Assembly (NCBI GenBank): GCA_030390025.1
Contig: CM059432.1
Location: 55,926,001 to 55,990,000, forward strand
From: Squalus acanthias
Lineage: Eukaryota
Direction: 5' to 3'
Length of the DNA stretch: 64,000 nt
Shown: positions 13,501 through 61,635 of the stretch, piece after piece
How positions within the stretch are numbered: the first letter of the stretch is position 1
Layout: the number at the start of each line of letters is the position of its first letter
Program-made: the position numbers and the translations under genes
The notes under the pieces: generated by a model
Database searches by the model: none
Seen by the model: only the letters and a program-made list of their open reading frames with translations
Told to the model about the DNA's origin: nothing

Positions 13501-13667
13501 CCATCTGAGCAGGCAGATGGGGCCTCATTCAAAAGACAGCATATTCGAGAATGCAGTAGTCTATCATTACTGTACTGAAGGGCTGGATTTTGCCAGTGTG
13601 GGTGGGCTGGGGCGTGTCAGGTGGAAATCGTGTCAGGACCCCGACTCCTAAGTGAAGTGTTGAAAAA

Positions 13668-21055: not shown

Positions 21056-21990
21056 AAATGAAAATAAGGAAATGGCGGCCGTTTTGAATAATTCATTCGT
21101 CAGTATTTACAGTAGAGGAAGAGGTCAGCATGCTGGAACATAAGCAAAATAACAGTAATGAAGAAAATAATGGCACTAAAGAGTGACAAGTCCCCAGGGC
21201 CAGATGGTTTCCATCCCAGGGTTACAAAGGAAGTAGGTGAGAACATTGCAGATGCCCTAATAAAAATCTTCCAAAGTTTTCTCGATTCAGGAGCCGTTCC
21301 TTTAGATGGGAATATTGCGCATGTCACTCCACTATTTAAGAATGGTGAGCGAGGGAAAACCAGGGAATTATAGACTTGGGGATCCAGGTACATTGATCAT
21401 TAAAATGTCATGAACAGGTACAGAAAATAATCAAAAAGGCTAATGGACTGTTGGCCTTTATATCTAGAGGACTAGAATATAAGGGGGTAGAAGACATGCT
21501 TCAGCTATACAAAGCCCTGGTTAGACCACACCTGGAGTACTGTGAGCAGTTCTGGGCACCACACCTTAGGAAGGATATATTGACCTTGGAGGAAGTGCAG
21601 CATAGGTTTACCAGAATGATACCTGGACTCCATGGGTTAAATTACAAGGAGAGATTACACAAACTCGGGTTGTATTCCCTGGAATTTAGATGTTTAAGGG
21701 GTGATTTGATCAAAGTTTTCAAGATATTAAGGGGAACAGATAGGGTAGATAGAAAGAAACTGTTTCTGCTGGTTGGTGAGTCTAGGACTAGGGGGCATAG
21801 TCTAAAAATTAGATTGAAAATCAGGAGTGAAATTAGGAATCACTTCTACACACAAAGGGTGGTAGAAGTTTGGAACTCTCTTCCGCAAACGGCAATTGAT
21901 TCTAGATCAATTGTTAATTTCAAATCAGAGATTGATAGATTTTTGTTAACCAATGGTATTAAGGGATATGGAGCTGATTTGCGACCTAAC
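21055..21990 (+). mobile_element. CR1 LINE fragment with internal deletions
   Basis: KSPGPDGFHPRV..KE and RPHLEYC..FWAP motifs; same subfamily as 48205-50535. Confidence 0.9.
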
Positions 21991-24900: not shown

Positions 24901-25265
24901 TGACCTAATAGAGGTCTTTAAAATTATGAAAGGTTTTGATAGAGTGGATACAGAGAGAATGTTTCCACTAGAGGCCATCAATATAAGATGGTCACCAAGC
25001 AATCCAACAGGGAATTCAGAAGAAACTTCTTTACCCAAAGAGTGGTGAGAATGTGGAAGTCACTACCACAGGGAGTGGTTGAAGCGAAAAGTATAGATGC
25101 ATTTAAGGGGAGGCTAGACAAGCATATGAGGGAGAAGGGAATAGAGGGTTTATGCTGATAGCTATAGATGAGGAAAGACAGGAGGAGTCTCGAGTGGAGC
25201 ATAAACACCAGCATGGACTGGTTGGGCCAAATGGCCTGTTTCTGTGCCGTATATCCTATGTAACT
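21991..25265 (+). mobile_element. CR1 LINE with near full-length decayed ORF2 (APE endonuclease + RT) and 3' UTR
   Basis: LNCLYSNAHSVRNK, GITETW, YRPPN, GDFN, PGPDG, YRPVSLTS, DFQKAFDKVPH, GVPQGSVLG, KFANDTK; many stops and frameshifts. Confidence 0.93.
22724..22967 (-). mobile_element. Short CR1 3'-tail insertion with duplicated (dimeric) tail
   Basis: Two tandem 'aagaac..aggagcagga..ggccactc' modules between GGAAT direct repeats inside the host CR1. Confidence 0.75.
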
Positions 25266-25357
25266 ACTGGAAACTGTATGCATCTACATAACCTGTCCCA
25301 TAATTTCATAATTTTAAACACTTTTATCATATTGCCCTGTAATTTGAATTGTTCTAA

Positions 25358-28300
25358 CTAACTACCATGTCAATCCCCTTCAGAATCTTGTATGTTTCAA
25401 TGAGATCACCTTTCATTCTTCTAAACTCCAGAGAGTATAGGCCCATTCTACACAATCTCTCATCATAGGACAGCCCCCTCATCCCAGGAATCAATCTAGT
25501 GAACCTTTGTTGCACCGCCTCCAAGGCAAGTATATCCTTCCTTCGATAAGGAGACCAAAACTGTGCACAGTACTCCAGGTATGGTCTCACCAAGGCCCTG
25601 TACAATTGTAGCAAGACTTCCTTACTCTTATATTCCAACCCCCTTACAATAAAGGCCAACATGCCATTTGCCTTCCTTAGTGCTTGCTGTACCTGCATGC
25701 TAGCTTTCTGTGTTTCTTGCACGAGGACACCTAAATCTCTCTGAACACCAACATTTGAAAGTTTCTTGCCATTTTAAAAAATATTCTGTTTTTCTATTCT
25801 TCCTACCAAAGTGAGTAACCTCACATTTCCCTACATTATACTCCACCTTACTGCCCACTCACTTAGTCTATCTATATCCCTTTGCAGACTCCTTGTGTTC
25901 TCCTCACAGCTTACAGTCCCACCTAACTTTGTATCGTCAGCAAACTTGGATACATTATACTCGGTCCCTTTATCTAGGTCATTAATATAGATTGTAAATA
26001 GCTGAGGCCCCAGCACTGATCCTTGTTACAGCCTGCCAACCTGAAAAAGACCTGTTTATCCCTACTCTCTGTTTTCTGTCCATTAACCAATCCTCTATCC
26101 ATGCTACCCCCAACCCCATGAGCCCTTATCTTGTGTAATAACCATTTATGTGGCACATTATCAAATGCCTTTTGGAAATCTAAATATATTACATCCACTG
26201 GTTCTCCTTTATCTACCCTGCTAGTTACATCCTCAAAAAACTCTAATAAATTTGTCAGACACTATTTCCCTTTCATAAAACCATGTTGACTCTGCCGAAT
26301 GGTGTTATGATTTTCTAAGTACCCTGATACCACTTCCTTAACAATCGATTCCAGCATTTTCCCGATGACTGATGTCAGGCTAACTGACCTGTAGTTTCCG
26401 GTTTTCTCTCACCCTCTTTTGTGAATAGCGGTGTTACATTTGCTACCTTCCAATACACTGGAACCCTTCTAGAATCTGGGGCATTTTGGACGCTCAAAAC
26501 CAATGCATCCACTATCTCTGCAGCCACCTCTTTTAGAACCCTAGGATGTAGGCCATCAGGTCCAGGGGATTTGTCGACTTTTAGTCCCATTAGTTTCTCT
26601 CCTACTTTTTCTCTACTTAATGTAATTAATATAAGTTCCTCACCCTCATTGAACACTTGGTTCCCCACCATTTTTGTTATGCTTTTTGTGTTTTCAACTG
26701 TGAAGACAGATACAAAATATTTGTTTAACGTTTCTGCCATTTTATTATTCCCCATAATAATTTTTCCTGTCTCAGCCTCTAAGGGACCAACGTTTACTTT
26801 TGCTACTCTCTTCCTTTTTACATACTTGTAGAAGCTCTTACAATCTTTATATTTCTTGCTAGTTTTCTATCATTCTATTTTTTCCCTTTTTATCAATTTT
26901 TTGGTCATCCTTTGCTGGTTTTTGAAACTCTCCCAATCCTCAGGCTTACTACTATTCTTCGCAACATTATGAGCTTCTTCTTTCAATCTAATGTTATCCT
27001 TAACTTCTTTAGTTAGCCACGGATGGATCATTTTTCCCGTGGAGTTTTTGTTTCTCAATGGAATGTATTTGTTGAGAATTATGAAAGATTTCTTCAAATG
27101 CTAGCCACTGCTTATCTATTTTTCCAATCTACCTTCGCCAACTCAGCCCTCATACTTATGTAATTGGCTTTATTTAAGTTTAAGACTCTAGTTTCGGACT
27201 TAGAATTTCACATTAAGTTTGAGAGTGACTTGCCTATCATATTATGATCACTCTGCCCCAGAGGATCCTTTACTTTGTGATTGCTAATTAACCCTTTCTC
27301 ATTACACAATACAAGATCTAAAATAGCCTGTTCCCTGGTTGGTTCCATAACGTATTGTTCTAGGAAACTGTCTCGAATGCATTCCATAAACTGGTCCTCC
27401 AGACTGCCTTTGCCAATTTGATTTGTCCAGTCTAACTGAAGATTGAAGTCCCCCACGATTATTGCATTACCTTTGTTACAAGCTCCTACTATTTCTTGAG
27501 TAATATTCTGTCCAACGGTCCAGCTACTGTTATGGGGCCTATATACTACTCCCACCAGTGTTTTCTGCCCCTTGCTATTCCTCATCTCCACCCATACTGA
27601 TTCTACTTCCCGATCTTCCGAGCCGAGATCCTTTCTTTCTACTTTCCTTATGGCATCCTTTATTATCAGGGCTACACCCCTCCTTTTCCATTCTGCCTGT
27701 CTTTTCGAAACGTCAAGTACCCTGGAATATTTAGTTCCCAACCTTGGTCACCTTGCAACCACGTCTCTGTAATGGCTATTAGATCAAACTCATTTATCTC
27801 TATTTGTGCCACTAGTTCGTCTATCTTGTTACGAATGCTTCGTGCATTCAGATAAAGAGCCTTTAATTTAAATTTTTTGCCATTATTCCCTGCTTTGACT
27901 TTATTCTCTGCTGCACTGCTACCGTTAAACTCTCTCTCTTCCTGTCATGCTCTGCTTATTTTTACCGAAATCGCTTATCTGCTCTATTGCCTTGACCTTT
28001 CTCTTTAGATTTCTAAATTTCCCCTCACCTCACCCCCCCCCCCCCCCCCCCCGCCCAACCCCTTTATTTTTTTCGTTTAAAGTCCTATCTACAACCCTAG
28101 TTATTCGATTCACCAGGACGCTGGTCCCAGCCTGGTTTAAGTGGAGCCCGTCCCGACGGAACAGCTTCCTCTTTCCCCAGTACTTGCGACAGTGCCCTAT
28201 GAATTGAAACCCCTTCTTCCCGCACCACTCTTTGAGCCACGCATTTAACACTCTGACCTGCTTGACCCTATGCCAATTTGTGCTTGGCTCAGGTAGTAAT

Positions 28301-28795
28301 CCAGAGATTATTACCTTTTGAGGTTCTTCTTTTTAATTTCGACCCTAGCTCCTCAAATTCCCTCAGCAGAACCTCATTCTTAGTTCTACCTATGTCGTTG
28401 GTTCCTACATGGACCACGACAACTGGATCCTCCCCCTCCCACTTCAAGTTCTTCTCCAGCCGCGAGGAGATATCCTTAACCCTGGCACCGGGCAGACAAC
28501 ACAGCCTTTGGGACTCTCTTTCATGGCTGCAGAGAACAGTATCTATCCCTCTGACTATACTGTCCCCTACCACTACCACATTCTTTCCTTTTCCCCCCAC
28601 TTGGATGGCCCCCTGTACCATGGTGCCGTGGTCAGTTTGTCCATCCTCCCTGCAGTCCTTTTCCTCATCCATACAGGTAGCAAGTACCTCGTACCTGTTG
28701 GACAAGGTCAAGGGCTGAGGCTCCTCCATCACTACATCCTGGGTCCCCAAACCTGCCTGACTCGCAGTCACACCCTCCTGTCCCTGACACAGCAC
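25358..28795 (-). mobile_element. CR1 LINE with ORF1 esterase domain and decayed ORF2
   Basis: ORF1: VVVGDSIVRG...LPGARVKD...HVGTNDIG (SGNH/GDSL esterase known from CR1 ORF1); ORF2 EN/RT motifs in ORFs 27208-27741, 26375-26755, 25974-26198, 25354-25722. Confidence 0.93.
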
Positions 28796-29769
28796 TCTTA
28801 ATTAGGTTTATTAAGGTTTTATATAGGCTCATAGTTGCCTCTTGGCTTTTGTATTCTACACCTTTTGTAATAAAACCTAGAATTCCATTAGCTTTTTTAC
28901 CACATTATCAATGTGAGGTTAGGCAAGGGGAAAATCAGGTGAGGTTTCTACTTCTGATTGCTCTTCAATGACCCATGCTGGAACGTGCTATTCAATGACC
29001 CATGCTGGAAAGTATGTGCAGATGGATTATGGGTAAGGATAAGAGCCAGTAAGAGGCCTGCATGTGACCTCCAGACCACGGAGCTTAGTGGGAACGTTGA
29101 CTGGAGGAGGTTACAGAGATAGGGAGGGGCGAGACCATGGAGGGATTTGGAAACAAGGATTTTAAAATCGAGACGTTGCCAGACCTGGAGCCAATGTAGG
29201 TCAGCGAGCACAGGGGTGATTGGTCAAGCAGCATCTGTAAAGAGAAAACATTTTTAACACTTCAGATGAAGAATCGTCATTGGAACTGGAAACTGAAAGA
29301 GAAATAATCCGCTTAATAGGACTATCCAAAATTGGGGGTGAGAACAATGGGCAGAAGTCAAAAATCAGGAATGCTGACTCCTGTCACAGAAACTATCTCT
29401 GCCCTTTTCTCAGAAGCTGAGATGCATAGTGGGTCTGTTTTCATGGTGGGTGGGAGGGTGGATGCTTTGTTGGGACACACTTAAGACAAGGGGTTGCTGG
29501 GGGTACGGGTTTGCACCTAGGTTTGTTGCCGTATCTTTTCAGGTATTTTTGGGTTCTGGCAGACCTGCATGTATTTTTAACATTTTCTGTTTTCATTTCA
29601 GATTTCCTGCATTTGTAGTTTTTTTTCTTTTTATTTGCTTCTTTATATGTATATCTTTCACATGCCTTTTCTCTTCCATTTTACAGCGTTTACTAAATAG
29701 AAAATATTTTAGAGACAGAAAAGGGCATGCTATGTTAGGTAATCTACTTTGGTTCGCGAAACATAAATT

Positions 29770-30685
<916 letters not shown>

Positions 30686-30799
30686 TGAGTATAGATAAGT
30701 TCAGATACAATCGTCTTGCTTTCAACAAGAAAGCAAATCTCTCTGAAACAGCAACATTTCACCTCATTAATAACGGAACATGAACTTCCTAAAACAGAA

Positions 30800-32330
30800 G
30801 CACAAAGCTCTAAATTAGCAACTTCTCATCCTCACTGACCAACTTCCACTTAAATTCCCTGTGCTCCCACTCCTCTGACTTTTATGCCCCCTTGTCCTCA
30901 CTTAACCTCACCCAACCTCACCCATGACATAATTTCCTGTACCCAAACACCCAGCTACACCTTGACCTGTGGTCTTCGTACCTCTGAAATCTCAATCATT
31001 GACATGGCTCTCAAAGACTACCTCCACCTCCAGAAAAACTTTTTTTCCCACCTGCTCAGCAACTCACTCCTTAACTGCACCTGTCATGACACTACTGCTG
31101 TTAACCTGCTCAGCAGTTGTCTCACTTCTACTTTTACACCCTTGCCTCACCGTCTCTCATCGCCACTTCTCCACAGATACAATTCCCATCTTGGCATCCT
31201 GAAGTCCTGACGGCTGCAGACTTGAGTGCACCTGGTGTGCTTATTTACTGCTGCTCTAGATCAACTATTTCAAGCATTCTCACGCCTTCCTCTTGGCTAA
31301 ATCTTAATGCTCTAGAATCATTTTGGAGAATAAGGGCAACCCACTGTTCTTTATGAAAAATTATCTCCTCAAATCCTCTTTCTCCATGACTTCCATCCTC
31401 ATTTTTAACACCAAGAGCAGAAAGCTTGTGAATTTCTTTGACTTGAACCTGGGCAGATCATCTCAATCTTTCTTAGCCGTCCCGGACCACCCTCCAGCCC
31501 GAATTCATCCTAGCTACGATGGCTACTACTCTACCATCTCCCCACCCCCAGTCCATTTTAATATTACCAAGTCCATGCGACCCAGCTTTGATTTTGTCCC
31601 ACCTGGCCACTGACCACTTAACTATGTTTCCCGTCTCTATACTCACTAACTCTGTTACTTTCTTCCTTTGCTCAGGCACCGTTCCCCTGCCTTTCAAAAT
31701 TGCAGTCATTGTTTTCTTCAAAAAACACATTTAGTCCATCATGTCTCCAGCTTTCAGCTCAGTTCTAGCCTCCCTTTCCTAAGGTCCTTGAACACATTGT
31801 CCCTCCAAGCTATGCACTTAACCTTTCTCAAAACATTCTACTCTTAATTCCTTCAGTCCAATTTCTACCTTGCTCATAGCCACCAAGACCACCCCGGTCA
31901 AAGTCATGAGCGATATTATCTATGGTTATGGATGCGTGCACATTATCCCATCAACATGGTGATTATGCTATCTTCCTCAAGTGCCTCTCCATGATCCAAC
32001 TCTGTAGGACTGCCTTAATGGTTCTACTCCCATTTGTCCCAATGCAGCCAACACATCCCGAGCAATGATTTCTCCTTCTGTCCACATAGTCACAGCCAGT
32101 GTACATCAAGGATTAATTATTGTCCCCTCCTCTTCCTCATTAAGTGTTCCTTGGTGACATTATCTGTGGTGTCCACTTCCAAACTCTTATCTCTCCAACA
32201 CTTTTTTTCAATCCCATGTCCATGTACCTGCTGTCAGACTGATCTTAAATCATGTATGTTAGAATTTCCTCCAATTGAACATCAGGCAGGCCAAAGCTAT
32301 AATTTTTGGCCCCTGCTAAAAATTCTGCTC
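30800..32330 (+). mobile_element. Highly degraded L2-like LINE fragment
   Basis: C-rich composition with remnants HTLDL, SGTVP..FK.A, 'ccaagaccacc..gtcaaagtc'. Confidence 0.5.
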
Positions 32331-32334
32331 CCTT

Positions 32335-33045
32335 GCTACCTGCAGTCTACGGTTTTCTTCCTCACTGTCAACTACACAGCCAATTTTTGTATCATCTGCA
32401 GACTTCTTAATCATGCCTCCTACATTGAAGTCTAAATCATTGATATATACCACAAAAAGCAAGGGACCTAGTACTGAGCCCTGTGGAACCCCACTGGAAA
32501 CAGCCTTCCAGTCACAGAAACACCCATCGACCATTACCCTCTGCTTTTTGCCACTGAGCCAATTTTGGATCCAAGTTGCCATTTTCCCTTGGATCCCATG
32601 GGCTTTTACTTTTTTGACCAACCTGCCATGTGGGACCTTGTCAAAGGCCTTGCTAAAATCCATGGAGACTACATCAAATGCAGTACCCTCATTGACCCTC
32701 CTCAAAAAATTCAATCAAGTTAGTCAGACACAACCTTCCCATGACTGCCCTTGATTAATCTGTGACTTTCTAAATGACGATTTATACTGTTCCTCAGTAT
32801 TTTTTCCAATAATTTTCCCACCAACGAGGTTAGGCTTACTGGCCTGTAATTACTCGGTCTATCCCTTTCTCCCTTTTTAAACAATGGCACAACGTTCGCA
32901 GTCCTCTGGCACCATGCCTGCAGCCAGAAAGGATTGGAAAGTGATAGTCAGAGCCTCTGCTGTTTCCTCCCTTGCCTCTCTTAACAGCCTGGGATACATT
33001 TCATCCAGGCCTGATGATTTATCTACTTTCAAGGATGCTAAACCT
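32335..33045 (-). mobile_element. CR1 RT fragment
   Basis: MDFSKAFDKVPHGRL, SGVPQGSVLGPLLF, ADDTK. Confidence 0.9.
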
Positions 33046-33288
33046 CTTATGCATGAATGCATTCTCTCATTTAGTATGTTATGTCAAAATAAACCAAATT
33101 AAGTGTTATCAGGGAAACTTGGTACGTTCTCGTGGTATCATTAAAATTGTTATAAACTACAGTTTCTTTATTAACAAGATAACCAATTTTAATTCTGATT
33201 TTCAATATTAACTGTTTTACATAACATTTTATTGAGGTGGGTGTGAAATGCTTTCATAAATTCTTCATTGGTTTCATTCTCTTCATAG

Positions 33289-33355
33289 GAATTCATCTGG
33301 TACCTCTAGACGAGTCAGTGACTGTAGAGCTAGTTCCACCATAGACAATAGTCAA
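33289..33355 (+). CDS. ROCK1: ROCK1 exon (~11), divergent Ser-rich linker
   Basis: tcatag|GAATTC...AGTCAA|gtaagg; phase 2 in and phase 0 out as the neighbouring exons require; QNSSGTSRRVSDCRASSTIDNSQ. Confidence 0.85.
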
Positions 33356-34002
33356 GTAAGGATTTTATGTTATTGCTTTCAGGTGATAATATTTGAATAG
33401 TGTAAATATCATAATTGTTCATGCAGCCGTCCTAGTTGCATTTCTCTCTCTGCAATCCAGAAAACAAACTTTTTTTGTAAATGGTTACTAAAACATGAAC
33501 TCCAGTCTCAAACCATTTTGTATGAAATAAATAATTTGTTTTTGGAGAGGAGTGGAGGGAATAAAGTGAGGAGCAACATCTTCTCTATAGCTCATTTCAG
33601 GATTTTCTTTCAGATAGCTTTACAAACTTTTCAAAGCTGGAGTAGAGAGTTGTGATGCAGGCTTATGGTATTTAAAATGAAGGTATCTGATAAAACTAGG
33701 TCTAACAATGTTGAAGAAAATAATGAGGAATGTAGAAAGTGTAGTGGGGATGTGAAAATGGCGATTAGAAGGGTTAAAAGGGAATATAAAAAAGGCTAGC
33801 TTATAATCAAAAACAAAATATTAAGGGCCTTTATAAGAATGAAATATTTAGTGGGGATAGAACCACTCGAGAATGAAGGAGGAAATCTAGTTCTGGAGGG
33901 CGAAGGTACAGAAAGCTGTTTGATGACAGGAAACTAAGTGTTAGTATTAATGGTGTTGCTGAGATTGGAACGAGTTGAAAGTGATGCCAAGATTGGTGGG
34001 AG

Positions 34003-35897
34003 ACCAGAGGATTGGGAAATTTTAAAAAACCAGCAAAGGATGACTAAAAAAAAAATAGAGAGAGAAGATGAATTATGAGAGTAAACTGGCAAGAAACATT
34101 AAAACAGATAGTAAGAGCTTCTACAGGTATATAAAAAGGAAGAGGGTAGCTAAAGTAAATGTTGCTCCCTTAGAGGATGAGACTGGGAAATTAATAATGG
34201 GGAACGGGGAAATGGCAGAGACTCTGAACAAATATTTTGTATCTGTCTTCACGGTAGAAGACACTAACAACATCCCAATAATGGATAATCAAGGGGCCAC
34301 AAGGAGGGGGGAACTAAAGACAATTGCTATCACTAAGGAAATAGTACTTGGTAAAATAATGGGACTAAAAGATGACAAGTCCACTGGACAGATGGCCTGC
34401 ATCCCAGGGTCTTAAAAGAAGTGGCTGCAGAGATAGTGGATGCATTGGTTGCAATATACCAAAATTCCCTGGACTCTGGAGAGGTCCCAGCGGATTGGAA
34501 AACCACAAATGTAACACCCCTATTTAAGAAAGGAGGGAGACAGAAAGCAGGAAACTATAGACCAGTTAGCTTAACATCTGTCGTTGGGAAAATGCTGGAG
34601 TCCTTCATTAAGGAAGCAGTAGCAGGGCATTTGGAAAATCATAATGCAGTCAAGCAGAGTCAGCATGGTTTTATGAAAGGGAAATCATGTTTAACAAACT
34701 TGCTGGAGATCTTTGAGGAGGTAACGAGCAGGGTGGACAAAGGTGAACCAGTGGATGTGGTGTATTTGGATTTCCAGAAGGCATTCGATAAGGTGCCACA
34801 TAAAAGGTTACTGCATAAGATAAGAGCTCACGAAATTGGGGGTAATATAACTAACAAAGCAGAGAGTCGGGATAAGTGGGTCATTTTCTGGTTGGCAAAC
34901 GGTAACTAATGGGGTGCCACAGGGATCGGTGCTGGGGCCTCAACTATTTACAATCTATATTAATGACTTGGATGAAGGGACCGAGTGTAATGTAGCCAAG
35001 TTTGCAGATGATACAAAGATGGGTGGGAAAGCAAGTTGTGCAGAGGACTCAAAGAACCTGCAAAGGGATATTGACAGGCTAAGTGAGTGGGCAAACATTT
35101 GGCAGATAGGAGTATAATGTGGGAAAGTGCAAGGTTATACACTTTGGCAGGAAAAATAAAAAAGCAAATTATTATTTAAATGGAGAGAGATTACAAAATG
35201 TGCATGAAACACAAAAAGTTAGCATGCAGGTACAGCAAGTAATCAAAAAGGCAAATGGAATGTTGGCCTTTATTTCAAAGGGGTTGGAGTATAAAAGCAG
35301 GGAAGTGCTGCTACAACTGTACAGGGCATTGGTGAGACCACACCTTGAGTACTGCGTACAGTTTTGGTCTCCTTATTTAAGGAAGGATATACTTGCATTG
35401 GAGGCAGTTCAGAGACGATTCACTCGGTTAATTCCAGAGATGAGGGGGTTGACTTATGAGGAATGGTTGAGCAGGCTGGGCCTATACTCATTGGAATTTA
35501 GAAGAATGAGAGGTGATCTTATTGAAACATATAAGATACTGAGGGGGCATGACAAGGTAGATGCAGAGAGGATGTTTCCCCTCATGGGGAAATCTAGAAC
35601 GCGGGGGCACAGTCTCAGAATAAAGGGTCGCCCTTTTAGAACTGAGATGAGAAGGAATTTCTTCTCTGAGGGCCGTAAATCTGTGGAATTCTCTGCCCCA
35701 GAGAGCTGTGGAGGCTGGGTCATTAAATACATTTAAGGTGGAGATAGACAAATTTTTGCAAGATAAGTGAGTGAAGGGCAATGGGGAGCGGGCGGGGTAG
35801 TGGCTTTGAGCCCAAGATCAGCCATGATCTTATTGAATGGCGGAGCAGGCTCAAGGGGCCAAGTGGCCTATTCCTGTTCCTATTTCTTATGCTCTTA
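34003..35897 (+). mobile_element. CR1 LINE, 5'-truncated, RT and 3' UTR
   Basis: ORFs 34068-35736 with CR1 RT motifs; tail 'tcctatttcttatgctcttatg'. Confidence 0.93.
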
Positions 35898-36543
35898 TGA
35901 TGTACCCCAGAAGCCAGTGCTGGATCCACTTTTGTTCTTGATACATGATTTGGACTTGGGCATAGGGAGCAACTCTAGCACATTAATGATGAATCATTTA
36001 GGGTAATGTTTCTTGCATGGATGAATGAGAATTTATAAAACTCACTAGTTAGTTTCTCAGGCTAGTGAGTTTTCACAAAATGATCTTTATATATGCAGCA
36101 GCCATAGTCAGTTTAAATAAATGCTTCAGCGAAGGTGTGTCATGATCATTTATTGCATTAATTACAACTAGATTTCTGAAGTGTCAGCTTGGCTCAATTG
36201 GTAGCATTTTCACGTCTGACTGTGGTTGTAAATTCAATCCCCAATCCAAGACTTGACGCATAAAGTAGGCTGATGCTTTAGTGCTCCACTGAGGGTGTAC
36301 TGCATTGTCAAAGGTGGCCTCCTTCAGATGAGATGTTTATATAAATGCAAGTCTTTTTTTCAGATGGAAAGTGTTGCACAATATCTGGATGTTGGTAATT
36401 AATGTAGGATTTACCTACAGCAATGAATTTAAACAAGCCCAGTGATGTCATGTATTTCACTCTTTTTCTACTTGGTATTCAATCTTAGAAATTTGAAGAA
36501 AATAGTTTAATGAGTACTTCACCTTAGCTGTCTTGCTTTTAAG

Positions 36544-48204: not shown

Positions 48205-50829
48205 ATAGGAACAGGAGTAGGCCACTCAACCCCTCGAGCTTGTTCTGCCATTCAATGAGATCATGGCTGATCTGCCACCTAACACCATTATACCCTTTGG
48301 CCTTTGGCCCATATCCCTTCATACCTTTGGTTAACAAAAAGCTATCAGTCTCAGATTTAAAATTAACAATTGATCTAGCATCAATTGCTGTCTGCGGAAG
48401 AGAGTTCCAAACTTCTACCACTGTAGAAGTGTTTCCTAATTTCACTCCTGAAAGGTCTGGCTCTAATTTTTAGACTATGCCCTCTAGTTCTAGAATCCCC
48501 AACCAGTGCAAATAGTTTGTGTAGTCACTCCTCATAATGTAACCCTTGAAGTCCGGGTATCATTCTGGTAAACCTACGCTGCACTTCCTCCAAGGCCAAT
48601 ATATCCTTCCTAAGGTTTGGTGCCCAGAACTGCTCACAGTACTCCAGGTGTGGTCTAACCAGGGTTTTGTATAGCTGCAGCATAACTTCTACGCCCTTGT
48701 ATTCTAGTCCTCTAGATATAAAGGCCAGCATTCCATTAGCCTTTTTGATTATTTTCTGTACCTGTTCATGACATTTTAATGATCTATATACCTGGACCCC
48801 CAAGTCTCTTTAGACCACCACTGATTTTAGCTTTTCATCATTTAGAAAGTACCCTGTTCTATCCTTTTTAGGTCCAAAGTGGATGACCTCACATTTGCTT
48901 ACATTGAAATCCATTTGCCACAGTTTTGCCCATTCACTTAATCTATCACTATCTCTTTGCAATTTTATGCTTTCATCTACACTGCCTACAATACCACCTA
49001 TCTTTGTGTCATCGACAAATTTGGATATATGACTTTCTATGCCTTCATCTAAGTCGTTCATAAATTTTGTGAATAGTTGAGGGCCCAACACAGATCCCTG
49101 CAGGACACCACTAGTTACATCCTGCCAATTTGAGTACCTACCCATTATCCCTACTCTCTGTCTCCTGCCGCTCAGCCAATTTCCTAACCAGATCAATAAT
49201 TTACCCTCAATTCCGTGGGCTTCTGCCTTGGATAACAGTCTCTTATGTGGGACTTTATCAAATGCTTTCTGGAAATCCATATAAATAACATCCATAGACA
49301 TTCCCCTGTCCACTACTTTAGTCACCTCTTCAAAAAATTCAATCAGGTTTGTCAGGCATGACCTACCTTTCACAAATCCATGCTGGCTCTCTCTGATCAG
49401 CTGAAAATTTTTGATGTGTTCAGTCACCCTCTCCTTAATTATAGACTCTAGCAATTTCCCGACAACAAATTTCAGGCTAACTGGTCTATAATTCCCTGGT
49501 TTCCCTCTCTCACCACTCTTAAATAGCGGAGTGACATGCACAATTTTCCAATCTAAAGGAACGGTTCTGAATCTAGAGAACTTTCGAAGGTTATAGTTAG
49601 GGCATCTGCCATGTGCTTACCTACTTCCTTTAAAACTCTGTAATGGAAACCATCTGGTCCTGGGGATTTGTCACTCTTTTATTGCCATTATTTTCTTCAT
49701 TACTGTTATTTTATTTACGTTAATTTTATTGAGTTCCTGTCCCCGATTCAATATTAGTTTCTTTGGGATTTCCGGCATGCTATCCTCCTCTTCTGCTGTA
49801 AACACTGACGCAAAATTATTATTCAACATTTCCGCCACTTCCTTATTATCATTGACAATATCACCGCTTTCAGTTTTTAAGGGGCTAACATTGCTCCTAA
49901 CTACCCTCTTTTTCCTAATGTAATTATAAAAATTCTTTATTAATTTTGATATCCCTTGCAAGTTTTTTTTCATACTCCCTTTTTGTAGCTCTTGCTATCT
50001 ATTTTGTGACCCTTTGCTGTTCTTTGTATCTTTCCCATTCGCCAGGATCTGTGCTATTTTTGTATGCTTTTTCTTTTAGTTTTATGCTGTCCCTTACCTC
50101 TTTAGTCATCCATGGCGCTTTTTTTGGCAAGTAGAGCTCTTGCCCCTCGGGTATAAACTGGTTCTGTATCACATTAAATTCTTTTTTAAACATCTCCCAC
50201 TGATCTTCTGTCGTTTCACCCGTTAACAGATTTGCCCAGTTTACTGTGGACAGTCTCTGCCTCATCCCATTGAAGTCAGCCTTACCTAAATCTAGAATCT
50301 TAGTTTCGCATTTCTCCCTTTCAAACGCTATGTTGAACTCGATCATGTTATGATCGCTATTGGATAAATGTTCACGCACAGTTAGGCTGTTAACTAAATC
50401 TGACTCATTACTCATTACTAAATCTAATATGGCTTGCCCCCTTGTTGCCTCTAGGACATATTGTAGAAAACTATCCTGGACACATAAGAAATTCACTACC
50501 TTTCTGACAGGTGCTAGTCTGCTTATCCCAATCTACAGGAAACTCTTTATTAACCGGCACCGGCGTGGTGCCGGTTTATCGAAAGTACCGGATAACGGAG
50601 AGTTATATCTACCGAGGCTATTTTTAACAAAGAAAAATAAATAAATCAAGAAATGTGCAGTATACAGTATTTGGGTACTCACCTACAGAATGTTGTGTTA
50701 AATGGATAGTGGAAGATGCTTGATTAAGTACAGTACTGCCAGTTGAGGGTAATCCATAACTCTTTAATTACTTAACAGTAAAACAAAACTTATAAACGAC
50801 TGTCTACAGTACTGTAGTTGACTGTACAC

Positions 50830-52600
50830 TTATTCCGAGTCATCTGGTTCATCAGAAATATCCGTATCCGTGCCAGCTGGGTCATCAGGATCACGCAGTT
50901 CCACCGATGCCACAGATTCTTCAGGCACTTCCGCTGCTGCGACTCTTTTGGAAGCTTTCTTAAACATGTTGCGGATGTCGGTTTGCTTAGTGGACTCTTG
51001 CCTTTTCTGTAGAAAGGTGGAATGCAGAATATGGAGTTGCATAACTTCTTGTGCAGAGTAGCAATTCTGCCTTTCAGCAAATTTGAGGATTGTAGAAAAT
51101 CCTTCTGCAGCTTTAGCCCAAGAAATCTTCTCTTCTTCAGAAATCTCATCCTTTTCACTTTCCATCTCGCTTTCCTTTTCTTTCTTTGGATTCAAAACAT
51201 TCTCAATTATTTCATCATCACTTAGCATATGCACAACACCAACTTCTCTATCTGCATCAACCCACTGCTCGATATCACTTTCACTGAGGTGACGTAGAGG
51301 GTTTGCTGGGCCTGCATTTTTCACCATTCCAGCCATTTCCATTATTGTACTCTTCTTGGGACGAACATTGAACCCATGAAATTCCTCCTCTGAAGAAGAA
51401 CCTTCAGCAAAAATTACAGAAGGCCACAATTTGCGCCAGGCTTGCCTCAGAGTGTGACCTTTCACCAATTTCCAGGAACATGCAACATTATAGATGGCAT
51501 CTTTAATATTGTATTCCTTCTGCAATTCTTGAATATTGTCATCTTGGCTTATCAGTTTACGTAGGAAGTCTTTCTTGTAATGACACTTCAGATTTTGGAT
51601 AACGCCCTGGTCCATGGGTTGGATGAGAGAAGTTACATTTGGTGGCAAATAAATGGTGAAAATATTTCCCGAAACCAACTGGGATTCATGCGGATGGGCT
51701 CTGCAATTATCAAGCAATAAAATGCATTTGCTATCTTCAGGTTTCCCTATTTTGCGGAAATGTTCCCTCACAGATGGAACAAAAATATGATGGAACCAAT
51801 CGGAGAAGATTTCCTTATCCATCCAAGCATTTTTTTGAGCTTTGTACTCAACAGGTAAGTGCCTCACATTTTTAAATGCACGGGGATTTTTATACTTCCC
51901 GATAACAAGAAGTTTAACCCGGTGTGATCCAGCAGCGTTCGCACATGTTAGCACGGTTACACGATCTTTATTTTTCTTGTAACCTGAAGCATTAGCCTCA
52001 CTAGCCCCAGCAAGTGTTGATTCCGGCAAAAACCTCAAACAAGCCAGTTTCATCGGCATTATATATCTGTGCTGGCGACAAATCATGTTGCTGCACAATC
52101 CGATTGAAATAATCGCAGTATTCTTCTGCGGCGTCATGATCAGCTGATTTCTTCTCCCCGGAAATATCGAGTCGTCGTATCCCGTGCCGTAACTTGAAGC
52201 ACGTTAGCCATCCCTCGGAGAAAGCACACTTGTCAGTGAGCTCCATCCTTTCGTAGAAATCCTTCGCTTTCTCGATTAGCATGGGTCCGGAAATTGGAAC
52301 ACCCTCTGAACGCTTAAGAGAAAACCATTCATAAAGCACGGTATCCAGCTCTTCAAGCTTAGGCTTACGAAGCGTACGCCGTTTCTCTACACTCTTAGAT
52401 GTCTCCGAGCTTGAATAAAACTTGAGCAGCTTATCCTTCTGCGATTTGATGTCGTAGATTGTTGACGAACCGATTTTGAATTCATTCATAATGTTGATAC
52501 GCTTCTCTCCCCTTTCTAGTCGTTGGCATATCTCGATTTTCTGTTTTAAAGTTAAGACCACTCTCTTCCTTTTGCTTGGACCAGCTTTTGGGAATTCCAT
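50830..52600 (-). pseudogene. Tigger/jerky-like transposase (~590 aa), single 2-nt frameshift at ~52037
   Basis: [15 protein letters not shown] (CENP-B N-terminal HTH), WF...G.PISGP...[14 protein letters not shown] (HTH_Tnp_Tc5), [25 protein letters not shown] (32 aa between the last two Asp). Confidence 0.92.
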
Positions 52601-52635
52601 AATGCAAGATGGAGGAGATAATTGCCGATAAAGAT

Positions 52636-52945
52636 GGAGAGACACACAGAACAATGGTGGCTAGGAAGAGACTACCAGCAGCGTGGGAGACACACAGTAA
52701 AATGGTGTATCAGAAGAGACTACAGTACCAGCAGCGTGGGAGACACACAGCAAAATGGTGTATCAGAAGAGACTACAGTACCAGCAGCGTGGGATACACA
52801 CAGCAAAATGGTGTATCAGAAGAGACTACAGTACCAGCAGCGTGGGAGACACACAGCAAAATGGTGGATCAGAAGAGACTACCAGCATCGTGGGAGACAC
52901 ACAGCAAAATGGCCGATCAGAAGAGACTCCAGGCAGCGCGGGAGA
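52636..52945. repeat. Tandem array of six 48/53-bp units in the Tigger 5' leader
   Basis: Unit GGGAGACACACAGCAAAATGGTGTATCAGAAGAGACTA(CAGTA)CCAGCAGCGT. Confidence 0.92.
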
Positions 52946-53058
52946 ATCAACTCCTGCTACTGCAGTGTTTCGGACTTCCGACAGCGCCAGGAGGCCGAGT
53001 AGTGGCACTTTTGAAAACTACCCCTACTGACTAAATCGGCGTTCTCGGACTCGGGATC

Positions 53059-53165
53059 GGCAACATTGCCGGTTATTTGAGAGGAGTTTTCGGAGTACTC
53101 TGCATTCGCGGAGACTCGACTGCGACTTGGCAACATTGCCGGTTATTTGAGAGGAGTTTTCGGAG
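53059..53165. repeat. Perfect 37-bp direct repeat (period 70) in the Tigger subterminal region
   Basis: GGCAACATTGCCGGTTATTTGAGAGGAGTTTTCGGAG at 53059-95 and 53129-65. Confidence 0.92.
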
Positions 53166-53879
53166 GATGATTTTTGCCGGTTAAGTGAGAATTCCGGATA
53201 TTTGGGTGCCGGATAAACAAAAGTTTCCTGTATATGAAAGTTAAAACCCCCCCATTAAAAACACTCTGCCTTTGCTACTCACTGGTCTAATCTCTGCATT
53301 TATACAATCTAGCACTTCACAGCTGCTACCAGGGGGGCTATACACAACTCCCACTACAGTCTTAAATCCTTTCCTGTTTCTTTATTCTACCCATAATGTC
53401 TCCACTGCCTGCTTACCTCTCTTTATATCCTCTCTCATCATTGAAGTGATTTCCATCCCTAATCACTAAGGCTACTCCTCCCCCTCTGCCATTTTCCCTA
53501 TCTTTCCTGTAGACCTTATAACCTGGTATATTTAGTTCTCAGTCCTGACCATCTTGCAGCCATGTCTCAGTAATGGCTACAATGTCATACCCTCCAATTT
53601 GAATTCGCGCCTGCAATTCATTCTGTTTACCCTATACGCCGTGAGTTTGTATAAAGAACACTTGTTTGGGCCACACACCCTAGCCTGTCCTTCAGCTCTA
53701 ATGTTTTACTCACATGTTTCTTATTTCTCCTGGTTTAATCGCTTTACATCTTTTAGTTTTCCCTTTACCTGTAGTGCCTAAAGCACAATTTCTGACTGTT
53801 ACTCTACTCTCTTCCATTTCGTTTGTTTTTGAACTACTATTTGTACTACAATTTCCACCTGAGCCCTGATCTCTCTGTT

Positions 53880-55820
53880 TCTACACCCCCTTTAAAATTG
53901 TACCATTTAGTTCATATTGCCTCTCCTCATTCTTCCTACCAAAATGTGTCACTTCACACTTCTCTGCATTAAATTTCATCTGCCATGTGTCTGCCTATTT
54001 TACCAGTCTGTCTATGTTCGCCTGAAGTTTGTTACTATCCTCATTGTTTACTACATTTATAAGATGTGTGTCATCTGCAAACTTTGAAATTATGCTCTGT
54101 ATACCCAAGTCCAGGTCATTAATATATATTAAAAAGAGCAGTGGTCCTGATACCGACCCCTAGGAGACACCACTGCACACTTCTCTCTAGTCCAAAAAAC
54201 AACCGTTCATCACTACTCTCTTGTTTCTGTCCCTTAACCAATTTTGTATCCATTCTGCCACTGTCCCTTTAATTCCACTAGCTTTAATTTTGCTAACAAG
54301 AATATTATGTGGTACTTTGGCAAACACCTTTTGAAAGTCTATATACACATCAACTACACTACCCTCATCAACCCTCTCCGTTACTTCATCAAAGAACTCA
54401 ATCAAGTTAGTCAAACACAATTTGCCTTTAACAAATCCATACTGACTATTTTACTAGCCCATACTTTTCCAAATGCTAATTACTTTTGCCCTGGATTATT
54501 GTCTGTAAAAGTTTTCCCACCACCGACGTTAGGCTGATTGGTATGTAATTGCTGGGTTTATCCCTCTTTTTTTTTTAAACAGGTATGTAACATTTGCAAT
54601 CCTTCAGTACTCTGGCACAACCCCATATCTAAGGAGGATGGGAAGATTGTGGCCAGAGCCTCTGCAATTTCCATCCTTACTTCCCTCAGTAACCTAGGAT
54701 GCATCCCATCCGGACCAGGTGACTTTTCTACTTTGAGGACTGCCAACCTTTAAGTACCTCCTCTTTATCTATTTTTATCCTTTCCAATATCACTACTGCC
54801 TTCTTTACTACATTGGCAGCATCCTCTTCTCTACTGAAGACAGATGCAAAGTACTCATTTAGTACCTCACCCATGCCTTCTTCCTCCACAAGAATATCTC
54901 CTTTTTGGACCCTAATCGACCCCAGCCTTCCTTTGACTATCCTATTTATGTGCAAGACTTTTGGGTTCCCTTTTATGTTAGCCGCTAATCTGTTCTCCTA
55001 CACTCTCTGCCCCTCTTATTCCGTTTTTTAGATCTCCTCTATACTTTCTATATTCATCTTGGTTTTCTACTGTATTATGAACCTTATGTTTGTCCTAAGA
55101 CTCCTTTTTTCTGTCTCATTTTAACCTCTATCATCCAAGGAGCTCCAGCTTTGGATGCCCTTCCTTTCCCCTTGATGGGAATGTATCTATTCTGTACCCA
55201 AATCATCTCTTCTTTGAAGGCCTCCCATTGTTCAATTACTGTTTTGCCTACCAATTTCTGTTTTGCCTACCAATTTTTGATTCCAATCCACCTAGGCCAG
55301 ATCCCTTTTCAACTCACTGAAGTTAGCCCTCCTCCAGTTAAGTATTTTTAAGCTTGATTGTTCCTTCTCCTTTTCCATAACTATTCTACACCTGATGGTA
55401 TTATGATCACAGTTGCGATATAAATGCAAGTTGTTGTTCACCAAATACTCTCCCACTGAAACATGCTCCACTTGCCCCACTTCATTCCCCAGAACTAGAT
55501 CCAGCACTGCTTCCTTCCTCGTTGGTCTGGAAATACACTGATCAAGAAAGTTCTCTTGTAAATAATTCAGAAGTTCCTTCCCCACTTTGGTCTTTCCACT
55601 AATAGCTCCTCTATTGTTCCTTAATGCTAACTAAATAAGGGTCTTTGACCCCCCTCGACTACATCATCCCTCTCCAGTGCTTTAATAGTTTCCATGGTCA
55701 ATACTGCCACCCCCCCCCCCCTCCTTTTTTTCCCCTCCCTATCTTTCCTGAATATCTTGCAGCCAGGAATATTAAGTTCTCAATCTTCCCCTTCTTTGAG
55801 AGAGATCTGTTTTTGCCACT
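53880..55820 (-). mobile_element. CR1 LINE fragment(s), EN to RT
   Basis: RPTRKEAVLDLVLGNE, KSPGPDGMHPRLL, IDFQK.FAKVPH. Confidence 0.85.
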
Positions 55821-58762: not shown

Positions 58763-60921
58763 CTGATGAAAAGTCATTGACCTTAAACGTTAACTCTGTT
58801 TCTATCTCCACAGATGCTGCCTGACCTGCTGAGTATTTCCAGCATTTTCTGTTTTTATTTCAGATTTCCAGCATCTACATTTATAGAGATATTATAGAAA
58901 TATTTCATAACTCTCAAGAAAGATATATTCCAGTGAGAAAGAAAGACTCTACGAGAAGGATGAACCATCTGTGGCTAACTAAGGAAGTTAAGGATGGTAT
59001 CAATTTGAAAGAAAAGACATACAATGTTGTGAAGATTAGTGTTCAGCCAGAAGATTGGGAAATTTTTAGAAACCAGCAAAGGATGACAAAAAATAATGAG
59101 GGAAAAAATAGATTGAGCGTAAACTAGCAAGAAATATAAAAACAGACAGTAAGAGCTTCTACAAGTATATAAAAAGCAAGAGAGTAGCTAAAGTAAACGT
59201 TGGTTCCTTCGAGGATAAGACTGAGGAATTCATAATGGGAAACAAGGAAATGGCAGAGACTTTGAACAAATATTTTGTATCTGTCTTCACGGTAGAAGAC
59301 ACTAAAAGCATCCCAATAATAGTAGATAATCAAGGGGCAAAAGGGAGGGAGGAACTTAAAACAATCATTATCACCACAGAAAAAGTACTCGGCGGACTAA
59401 AGGCTGGCAAGTCCCCTGGACCTGATGGCCTGCATCCTAGGCTCTTAAAAGAAGTGGCTGCAGAGATAGTGAATGCATTGGTTGTAGTCTTCCAAAATTC
59501 CCTAGATTCTGGAAAGGTCCCAGCATATTGTAAAACTGCAAATGTAACGCCCCCTATTCAAGAAAGTAGGGAGACAGAAAGCAGGAAACTATAGGCCAGT
59601 CAGCCTAACATCTGTCATTGGGAAAATGCTGGAATCAATTATTAAGGAAGTAGTAGCAGGACATTTAGAAAATCGTAATACAATCAGGCAACGTCAACAT
59701 GGTTTTATGGAAGGGAAATCGTGTTTGACAAATTTATTAGAGTTCTTTGAGGATGTAATGAGCAGGGTGGATCAAGGGGAACCAGTAGATGTAGTGTATT
59801 TGGATTTCCAGGCATTCGATAAAAGGTTACTGCACAAGATAAGAGCTCATGGTGTTGGGGGTAATATATTAGCATGGATAGAGGATTGGCTAACTAACAG
59901 AAAACAGAGAGTTGGGATAAATGGGTCATTTTCAGGTTGGCAGACTGTAACTAGTGGGGTGCCACAGGGATCCGTGCTGAGGCCTCAACTATTTACAATC
60001 TATATTAATGACTTGGATGAAGGGACCGAGTGTACTGTAGCCAAATTTGCTGACGATACAAAGATAGGTGGGAAAGCAAGTTGTGAGGAGGACGCAAAGA
60101 GTCTGCAAAGGGATATAGATGGGTTAAGTGAGTGGGCAAAAATTTGGTAGGGAGAATAGAAAAGCAAAATATTATTTAAATGGAGAGAGACTACAGAATG
60201 CTGCAGTACAGAAGGATCTGGGTGTTCTCATACATGAAACACAAAAAGTTAGCATGCAGTTACAGCAAGTAATTCGGAAGGCAAATGGAATGTTGGCCTT
60301 TATTGCAAGGGGGATGGAGTATAAAAGCGGGGAAGTCTTGCTACAACTGTACAGGGTGTTGGTGAGACCACACCTGAAGTACTGCGATAGTTTTGGTCTC
60401 CTTATTTAAGTAGGGATATACTTGCATTGGAGGCAGTTCAGAGAAGGTTCATGAGGTTGATTCCTGAGTTGAAAGGGTTGTCTTATGAGGAAAGGTTGGG
60501 CCTATATTCATTGGCGTTTAGAAGAATGAGAGGTGATCTTATTGAAACATTTAAGATTCTGAGGGGGCTTGACACGGTAGATGCTGAGAGGATGTTTCCC
60601 CTTGTGGGGGAATCTAGAACTAGGGGGCATAGTTTCTGGATAAGGGGTTGCCCATTTAAGACGAAGATGAGAAAGAATTTCTTCTCTCAGAGGGTCGTGA
60701 ATCTTTGGAATTCTCTACCCCAGAACGCTGTGGAGGCTGAGTCGAGATAGACAGATAATTGAGGTACAGGGGAGTCGAGGGTTATGGGGAACAGGCAGGA
60801 AAGTGGAGTTGAGGCCAAGATCAGATCAGCCATGATCTTACTGAATGGTGGAGCAGGCGCGAGGGGCCAAATGGCCTACTCCTGCTCCTATTTCTTGCGT
60901 TCTTGTGCAGTATTTTGCTTT
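58763..60921 (+). mobile_element. Penelope-like element (58763-58876 and 60906-60921) with 14-bp TSD, split by a CR1
   Basis: TSD TGGGATAATATCTG at 58752-65 and 60922-35; 'ccagcatct|gcagtattttgctttt' rejoins across the CR1. Confidence 0.8.
58880..60905 (+). mobile_element. CR1 LINE, 5'-truncated RT and 3' UTR
   Basis: ORFs 59235-60750 with RT motifs (FADDTK); tail 'tcctatttcttgcgttcttgt'. Confidence 0.93.
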
Positions 60922-61312
60922 TGGGATAATATCTGGGAAGGTTATGTGGAAATAATATCATTTGTTTTCCTTCATGCTTCAGCAATTCCATTTTCTTCTA
61001 CCCTTTTCAAAAGTGCAATGGTGTCTGACAATTAAATTCACAGCATAATAGATGGACAGCATACAACTGCCATCTGTATAGAAACTAAGAGGTTAAATAT
61101 TGAGAAGGACAAATATAACTTGTAAAATGAACTTTTCCACATGAGCTTGCTTAAAGAAAATGACATTAGTCAAATTTATATTTATCCCCTTTACCCTTCT
61201 GTATCTTGCATCATTCATTGCTATGAGGGAGTGTAGGTAGCCCTCTGTAACTGCCACAAGGAGGTACATAATAGAACCCATAAATGATTGCATCTACATG
61301 TGAGAAGGCATC

Positions 61313-61635
61313 TAGGAACAGGAGTAGGCCATTTAGCCCCTCGAACCTGTTCTGCCAATCAGTGAGATCATGGCTGATCTGCGACCTAACTCCATATATC
61401 TGCCTTTGGCCCAAATTCCTTTAATACCTGTGGTTAACAATCTATCAATCTCAGATTTAAAATTAACAATTGATCTAGAATCAGTTGTTGTTTGTGGAAG
61501 AGAGTTCCAAACTTCTACCACCCTTTGTGTGTAGAAGTGTTTCCTAATTTCACTCCTGAAAGGTCTGGCTCTAATTTTTAGACTATGCCCCCTAGTCCTA
61601 GACTCCCCAACCAGCGGAAATAGTTTCTATCCTGT
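61313..61635 (-). mobile_element. CR1 3' end
   Basis: Closely matches 48205-48520. Confidence 0.85.

What the first reader, a model, noticed from the sequence alone, without database searches (positions are those of the whole stretch)
50536..53230. Young, almost intact jerky-like Tigger (DD32D) transposon with one small lesion
Seen: both TIRs, a TA TSD and ~1.77 kb of coding sequence with no in-frame stop. The only break is GGC TTG TTT G AGG TTT; adding TG gives DETGLFWR and a single ~590-aa ORF with both HTH domains and an intact D/D/D triad. The 5' half still has many CpGs, and the element interrupts a CR1, so it is younger than that CR1. Known: pogo/Tigger transposases gave rise to the domesticated JRK/JRKL/TIGD genes, and pogo elements can move horizontally. 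Inference: a recently active, possibly undescribed chondrichthyan family that could be reconstructed as an active transposase.
Basis: partly seen in the sequence, partly recalled or inferred. Interest (0 to 1): 0.75.

Follow-up and report, generated by a model that had tools for sequence, protein, structure and literature searches.

The report
Broken shark jumping gene, JRK-related
This is a complete but disabled copy of a cut-and-paste "jumping gene" in a shark-like fish, from the group of transposons that gave mammals the JRK (jerky) gene; it is a well-preserved new member of a known kind, not a new kind of thing.

Summary
Confirmed. A 2,695-bp pogo/Tigger DNA transposon (minus strand) with 26-bp TIRs, a true TA duplication (removing it restores the frame of the CR1 it interrupts), two HTH domains and a DD32D DDE_1 domain, cut by one 2-bp loss at 52036. 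Contigs from 4 of 4 runs of other coded organisms carry those two bases; long core contigs differ by about 1.1%. Shared internal-deletion junctions show non-autonomous derivatives, so this is a dispersed family that spread before or across these organisms. Closest named proteins: coelacanth multi-locus families (68-69%), a whale/bamboo-shark jerky-like gene (sister, 100/100), reptile Tiggers whose TIRs share the inner 10 bases, and mammalian JRK (54-60%). No close protein (over 75%) was found, and no chondrichthyan Tigger in two surveys has this TIR; Dfam and Repbase could not be searched. 'Young' holds only in divergence: at the measured shark mutation rate 1% is about ten million generations. 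Current activity, copy number and horizontal transfer are not shown. The scan earlier noted the carpet-shark sister gene on other DNA (e1-7788937). New member of a known kind; interest 0.35.

The parts
50534..50535 (.). TA target-site duplication, left copy
   Evidence: CR1 frame restored with one TA; same-length empty CR1 joint in X1
50536..50561 (+). terminal inverted repeat at the 3' end of the element
50551..50594 (.). three copies of the motif WAWCCGG (one in the TIR, two subterminal and inverted): inferred transposase binding sites
   Evidence: 3 here and 5 at the other end, 8 of 15 window matches; binding is inferred
50562..50829 (-). 3' untranslated part, AT-rich
50830..52035 (-). transposase, second part (401 aa + stop): DDE_1 domain with second and third Asp (DD32D), acidic C-terminal region
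52036..52036 (-). site of the 2-bp loss that shifts the frame five codons after the first catalytic Asp
   Evidence: table 4: two letters put in behind 52036 in 4 of 4 runs
52037..52600 (-). [quoted passage not shown]
   Evidence: 1hlv (CENP-B) E 5.6e-09
52639..52945 (.). tandem array, about 6 units of 48-53 bp, in the 5' untranslated part
53048..53200 (-). subterminal region with a 70-bp-spaced duplication and four more WAWCCGG motifs facing the same way as the TIR
   Evidence: (D3, D4)
53205..53230 (-). terminal inverted repeat at the 5' end; 18 of 24 bases and the inner 10 match the alligator Tigger Alsi_1 TIR in register
   Evidence: compared by eye
53231..53232 (.). TA target-site duplication, right copy
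48550..54730 (-). decayed CR1 retrotransposon whose endonuclease region the element interrupts (limits approximate)
   Evidence: RVT_1 at 48813-49616 E 1.6e-29; matches to other CR1 copies of the window

Best explanation
A once-autonomous copy of a dispersed Tigger (pogo superfamily, DD32D) cut-and-paste transposon of the jerky-like lineage, inserted at a TA inside an older CR1 in a chondrichthyan genome and disabled by a 2-bp loss. In the working family the two HTH domains bind the repeated WAWCCGG sites in and beside the TIRs, the DDD domain cuts the ends and inserts them at TA, and the same enzyme moved shorter internally deleted copies. The family spread in several waves (subfamilies) in an ancestor of a group of related species and has been inherited since. 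This copy can make at most a 200-aa DNA-binding fragment and could move only with enzyme supplied by another copy. Shown: anatomy, TSD, lesion, relatives, shared deletion junctions. Inferred: binding sites, chemistry (from the family), age, vertical inheritance.
For: Anatomy; empty site; 18 of 24 listed runs hold half or more of the sampled words, in organisms A-F and 8 studies; 4 of 4 laid runs carry the two missing bases and lie about 1.1% away in long core contigs, against about 5-9% for the listed CR1 flank pieces; junction 50629>52921 in 4 of 4 runs, 50781>52923 and 50676>53007 in 3 of 4; in X1 some sites show both letters (for example 30% of depth with the window's letter at 51523 and 51527), as subfamilies would; end motif clustered, 8 of 15 matches within about 225 bp; sister to carpet-shark proteins 100/100; TIR core shared with reptile Tiggers whose proteins match P0005 and P0008 by species and length.
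Against: No genome is held, so copy number, intact copies and dispersal were not counted; contig depth is no copy number and long contigs may be a majority path through several copies. The organisms are coded, so their relatedness is inferred only from CR1 flank matches at 90% or more. No raw reads: an assembly error at 52036 is not excluded (the loss equals shortening two adjacent base runs by one each). The grouping with JRK is supported in the quick mixture tree (SH-aLRT 95) but open in the careful tree. The whole-window count of the end motif is not above chance (13 of 100 shuffles reach 15); only its placing is unusual, and the motif was chosen after seeing the ends.
Confidence: 0.82

Rival explanations
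1. The family is still active or very recently so: intact copies exist, insertions are polymorphic, and this copy may itself be whole (assembly error at 52036).
For: Frame is unbroken by gaps over 1.3-1.6 kb in contigs of X6 and X15; CpG kept in the 5' half; none of the 32 listed pieces bridges this copy's flank junctions (33,067 pieces not shown); many differences are transversions split among runs, so part of the 1.1% is subfamily difference, not decay.
Against: The same deletion derivatives are in four organisms; at least two residue changes (positions 208 and 295 of ORF2) are opposed by all listed depth in 4 of 4 runs; no protein over 75% identical among the best 120 of 1086 and 120 of 149 hits; shark mutation rate 7e-10 per generation.
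Confidence: 0.15
2. The family entered this shark lineage by horizontal transfer (from coelacanth, reptile or an invertebrate line).
For: 68-69% identity to coelacanth proteins over about 500-570 residues; inside the bony-vertebrate group the alligator element falls outside coelacanth b + turtles + JRK (99/97), which is not the host tree; Tigger transfers involving chondrichthyans are reported.
Against: Sister group is other sharks (100/100); holding the 13 bony-vertebrate rows together is not rejected (p-AU 0.376); no near-identical protein in any distant taxon; nothing in viral or metagenome contigs. No dS comparison was possible.
Confidence: 0.15
3. A domesticated JRK-like host gene, or a pseudogene of one.
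For: Databases name its relatives 'jerky protein homolog'; JRK 'pseudogenes' were reported in cartilaginous fish; a sister protein is whole in two carpet sharks at 85% identity.
Against: Both TIRs and the TSD are present, it sits inside a CR1, the frame is broken, and deletion derivatives with the same ends exist.
Confidence: 0.02

Closest known systems
Tigger family of the pogo superfamily (Gao et al. 2020, PMC7386202; Diaby et al. 2022, PMC9219625)
   Same: TA TSD, TIR under 40 bp, CENP-B_N + HTH_Tnp_Tc5, DDE_1 with spacing inside DD29-36D, about 2.7 kb
   Different: TIR begins CAGGA and matches none of the five chondrichthyan Tiggers listed in Diaby Table S1 nor the whale-shark one in Gao Table S1; 53-bp array in the 5' part
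Reptile Tiggers Alsi_1, Almi_2 (alligators, 597 aa) and Pesi_2 (Pelodiscus, 586 aa), Diaby 2022 Table S1
   Same: Inner 10 TIR bases identical and in register; P0005 (same species and length as Alsi_1) is 66% identical
   Different: 10, 29 and 4 copies, mostly not intact; P0005 and P0008 have lost the third Asp, the shark copy keeps all three; link between table rows and proteins is by species and length only
Latimeria chalumnae 'jerky protein homolog' clusters (P0003, 15 members on 8 contigs; P0007, 5 members)
   Same: 68-69% identity, DD32D, low divergence between copies (94-98% in the 20 of 45 pairs printed)
   Different: A separate family in a bony fish, with many whole frames; its ends were not seen here; perhaps Lach_3 of Diaby (582 aa), by length only
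Whale shark XP_048474049.1 / bamboo shark GCC36032.1 jerky-like protein
   Same: Sister to the window protein (100/100), 66-68% identical
   Different: Whole frame, long stem branch (0.37), 85% between the two sharks; read by an earlier scan note as a single immobilised, probably domesticated copy (not checked here at DNA level)
Mammalian JRK and its presumed donor Tigger15a (PMC13538051, PMC11601254)
   Same: Same domains and DD32 spacing; 60% to marsupial, 54% to mouse JRK; JRK still binds sites in Tigger15a TIRs
   Different: JRK is a single host gene without TIRs; Tigger15a is a therian fossil; its consensus was not available, so no direct comparison; reptile and coelacanth b elements are closer to JRK than this one is

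Membership tests
Tigger (pogo superfamily) | TA target-site duplication | tested here: met
   definition
Tigger (pogo superfamily) | short TIRs (40 bp or less) | tested here: met
   26 bp
Tigger (pogo superfamily) | CENP-B_N plus HTH_Tnp_Tc5 DNA-binding domains | tested here: met
Tigger (pogo superfamily) | DDE_1 domain with DD29-36D triad | tested here: met
   DD32D
Tigger (pogo superfamily) | falls in the Tigger clade rather than pogoR, Passer or others | tested here: inconclusive
   trees held jerky-like rows only, no pogoR, Passer, JRKL or TIGD2; nearest named kin are classed as Tigger or Tigger-derived
Tigger (pogo superfamily) | dispersed copies and non-autonomous derivatives | tested here: inconclusive
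   deletion junctions in 4 of 4 runs and an empty CR1 site point to it; no genome to count copies; only one copy in the window
Active autonomous Tigger | whole transposase frame in this copy | tested here: not met
   frameshift at 52036
Active autonomous Tigger | excision and integration activity | not testable with these tools
   needs a cell assay
Tigger15a (Dfam) | DNA match to the Tigger15a consensus and JRK motif in the TIR | not testable with these tools
   no Dfam; motif is a figure in PMC13538051
Domesticated JRK-type gene | single copy, TIRs lost, frame kept whole | tested here: not met
   TIRs, TSD, frameshift, derivatives

The most novel reading that the evidence does not exclude
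The family still has whole, working copies in some sharks. It would then be a native, catalytically complete relative of the transposon that became mammalian JRK and the mobile sister of a second, independent JRK-like domestication in carpet sharks, with a TIR binding core kept since the shark-bony fish split. That would allow a direct test of what changes when a transposase becomes a transcription factor (does human JRK bind or even move the shark ends; does the shark enzyme move Tigger15a ends) and give a substrate for a first pogo catalytic-domain structure.
Probability: 0.2. Interest if true: 0.62.

Novelty: new member of a known kind. Interest (0 to 1): 0.35.

Why it matters
Human JRK still binds the ends of the fossil transposon it probably came from, but that donor is dead in mammals. 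Little-decayed relatives with all three catalytic Asp residues and defined ends, such as this shark family and the coelacanth ones, make the ancestral enzyme-end pair open to study. A sequence search of the PDB found no relative of the catalytic half (one match at E 0.069, unrelated), so such a family is also a candidate for structure. It adds a low-divergence Tigger family to a survey that found few in vertebrates. On its own, one broken copy of a known type of transposon is ordinary.

Tried and rejected
No own genome is held: no copy count, no dating from copies. No RNA holder listed; X8 is only guessed to be RNA, so nothing is said on expression. TIR pattern in metagenome contigs: 0 matches; protein in metagenome contigs: 0 of 104 candidate stretches confirmed; in viral contigs: 0 of 8. 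AlphaFold model of the second half from an 11-row alignment: mean pLDDT 45.8, not used, no fold search run. PDB by sequence: nothing for the DDE half. Rfam: 0 matches in the window. Pfam on 91 of 109 other frames of 95 aa or more: only LINE domains, no host gene to name the species. The CR1 search placed the host among chondrichthyans but not in an order. Earlier scan notes by sequence: none. Atlas look-up of the ORF at 13.7 kb: no hit at 0.9. Rejected: domesticated gene; chance inverted repeat; TA pair by chance; 'only one change from the active form'. The claim that the family is not in print rests on paper searches and on supplement look-ups only; Dfam, Repbase, most subscription papers and bioRxiv supplements could not be seen and may name it.
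Full report
Observation. The element runs from 50536 to 53230 on the minus strand. Its ends are 26-base inverted repeats, 22 of 26 alike; a pattern covering both has 2 matches in the window and none in 100 shuffles. TA stands on both sides. Taking out the element and one TA restores a continuous CR1 endonuclease frame across the site, and one contig of run X1 joins the two flanks at exactly that length (joint 50533>53232), so the TA pair is a true target-site duplication and the CR1 is older. The coding region is in two frames: 188 aa from the ATG at 52600 (CENP-B_N, HTH_Tnp_Tc5) and 401 aa to the stop at 50830 (complete DDE_1). The triad is D183, then D109 and D142 of the second part, spacing 32. 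The window is a LINE-rich stretch with no host gene found; its CR1 proteins are closest to chondrichthyan ones (55-66% to named sharks, rays and chimaera, mostly about 45% to birds). No genome is held.

The lesion and the family. Of 24 listed runs, 18 hold half or more of the 284 sampled words (0.56-0.68), from coded organisms A-F, two unlabelled rows and 8 studies; 2 hold 0.12 and 4 none. A share of 0.68 corresponds to about 1.2% difference if every missing word is due to a change (my arithmetic). I laid 4 of the 24 (X1/A, X6/B, X8/C, X15/F), all contigs, at 90% likeness. Long core contigs differ by 16/1303 (X6), 18/1619 (X15), 6/536 and 0/336 (X8); listed pieces on the CR1 flanks differ by about 5-9%. 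Only 40 of 256 difference rows were shown. Of the 11 in ORF2 seen in two or more runs, 7 change a residue; at several sites X1 holds both letters, so there are subfamilies and the private divergence of this copy is below 1.1%; at 51153 and 51412 all listed depth in all four runs opposes the window. Seven of the 15 joints shown (of 106) skip 2.1-2.6 kb between the two ends: internally deleted derivatives of roughly 130-590 bp. One junction is in 4 of 4 runs, two in 3 of 4. Summed depth is higher at the ends than in the core (X6: 315-479 against 41), as such derivatives would give, though depth is not a copy number. None of the 32 listed pieces (33,067 not shown) bridges this copy's own flank junctions, so whether this insertion is shared is open. 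Without raw reads an assembly error at 52036 is not excluded; it is the only gap in 1.77 kb of coding DNA.

Age. The element is several-fold less diverged than the CR1 and keeps CpG (observed/expected 1.19 in ORF1, 0.36 in the window). But the epaulette shark mutation rate is 7e-10 per base per generation, interval 1.4-14.1e-10 (PMC10587355, passages); 0.5-1.1% then means of the order of 10 million generations, and shark generations last years (recalled). Derivatives shared by four organisms point the same way. 'Young' is relative.

Relatives. The second half finds 1086 proteins at E 1e-20 (best 120 listed, 220-702 aa): coelacanth 65%, painted turtle 63%, Chinese alligator 59%, bamboo shark 63%, highest 72% over half the query; the first half finds at most 75% among proteins over 329 aa (shorter ones were not searched). 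The coelacanth cluster has 15 members on 8 contigs, 94-98% alike in the 20 of 45 pairs printed: a parallel low-divergence family annotated as genes. With X at the break the protein is 67.5% identical to the whale shark protein, 68-69% to coelacanth, 66% to turtle and alligator, 60% to possum JRK, 54% to mouse JRK. A quick mixture-model tree of 56 rows puts it sister to the two carpet-shark proteins (SH-aLRT 96) inside a 23-row group (95) with coelacanth, reptile elements, JRK and one long unnamed row. A careful tree of 27 rows chosen from these gives 100/100 for the shark trio and 96/96 for alligator + coelacanth b + turtles + JRK, but leaves the link between the two open, and its outgroup was not one side of a branch; holding the 13 bony-vertebrate rows together is not rejected, p-AU 0.376. 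JRKL, TIGD2 and pogoR were not in either tree.

Ends and mechanism. The motif WAWCCGG occurs 15 times in the window (13 of 100 shuffles reach that), but 8 of the 15 lie in the outer 59 and 162 bases of the element; I chose it after reading the ends. The first half matches the CENP-B DNA-binding structure 1hlv. The likely mechanism is that of the family: HTH pair binds these sites, the DDD domain cuts and joins at TA, derivatives are moved in trans (inferred). This copy would give only a DNA-binding fragment of about 200 aa.

Known and new. Gao et al. 2020 (PMC7386202; abstract, passages, sections 6 and 8, searched supplement rows) define Tigger by TA TSD, short TIRs, CENP-B_N + HTH_Tnp_Tc5 and DD29-36D, give JRK as DD32D/E and call JRK-like sequences of cartilaginous and lobe-finned fish pseudogenes; the present element shows that at least some such sequences are plain transposon copies. 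The Codebook papers (PMC13538051 passages and supplement file 7 part 2, 12 of 13 files searched; PMC11601247 and PMC11601254 passages) report that human JRK binds Tigger15a TIRs and is closest to Tigger15a in Dfam. None of the five chondrichthyan Tiggers in Diaby's table has this TIR; that survey saw low-divergence copies only in a bat and the coelacanth. PMC5753468, PMC9976928 and PMC13320814 (passages) added only that Tigger15a is a Repbase human family and that a native pogo element (Passer) is active in human cells. Dfam, Repbase and bioRxiv supplements could not be seen.

Verdict. A real, well-preserved, disabled copy of a jerky-like Tigger family of sharks; new member of a known kind. 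Best reading 0.82; still active 0.15; horizontal entry 0.15 (not exclusive of the others); host gene 0.02. Interest 0.35, up to 0.62 if whole working copies exist.

Noticed in passing
window 52639-52945: Array of about six 48-53-bp units just upstream of the transposase ATG; unit number may vary between copies and could affect the promoter.
   Followed up: partly
window 13656-15209 (+): 518-codon open frame in a GC-rich stretch whose first 110 residues look by eye (recalled pattern) like a Myb/SANT-type domain of a PIF/Harbinger accessory gene; no Pfam hit, no Atlas hit at 0.9.
   Followed up: partly
window 21100-35900, 48500-54700, 58900-61600: Several decayed CR1 copies 65-80% alike, and other LINE and short repeats; no host exon found among 91 frames scanned.
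   Followed up: partly
proteins P0003, P0123-P0136: Coelacanth 'jerky protein homolog' annotations: 15 near-identical proteins on 8 contigs, most likely a low-divergence Tigger family with whole frames; a better source of a working enzyme than this copy.
   Followed up: partly
proteins P0012, P0164-P0166: Bombina bombina: four 614-aa jerky-like proteins on different chromosomes in one 90% cluster, another candidate recent family.
   Followed up: no
proteins P0151/P0056, P0006: Whale shark and bamboo shark jerky-like proteins, whole frame, 85% alike, sister to this family: candidate domestication separate from mammalian JRK.
   Followed up: partly
proteins P0016, P0219, P0205: Fusions of jerky-like transposase parts: with PF01352 (KRAB, name recalled) in Pelodiscus and Geotrypetes, and the HTH pair in a GTF2I isoform of the boa Candoia aspera.
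   Followed up: no
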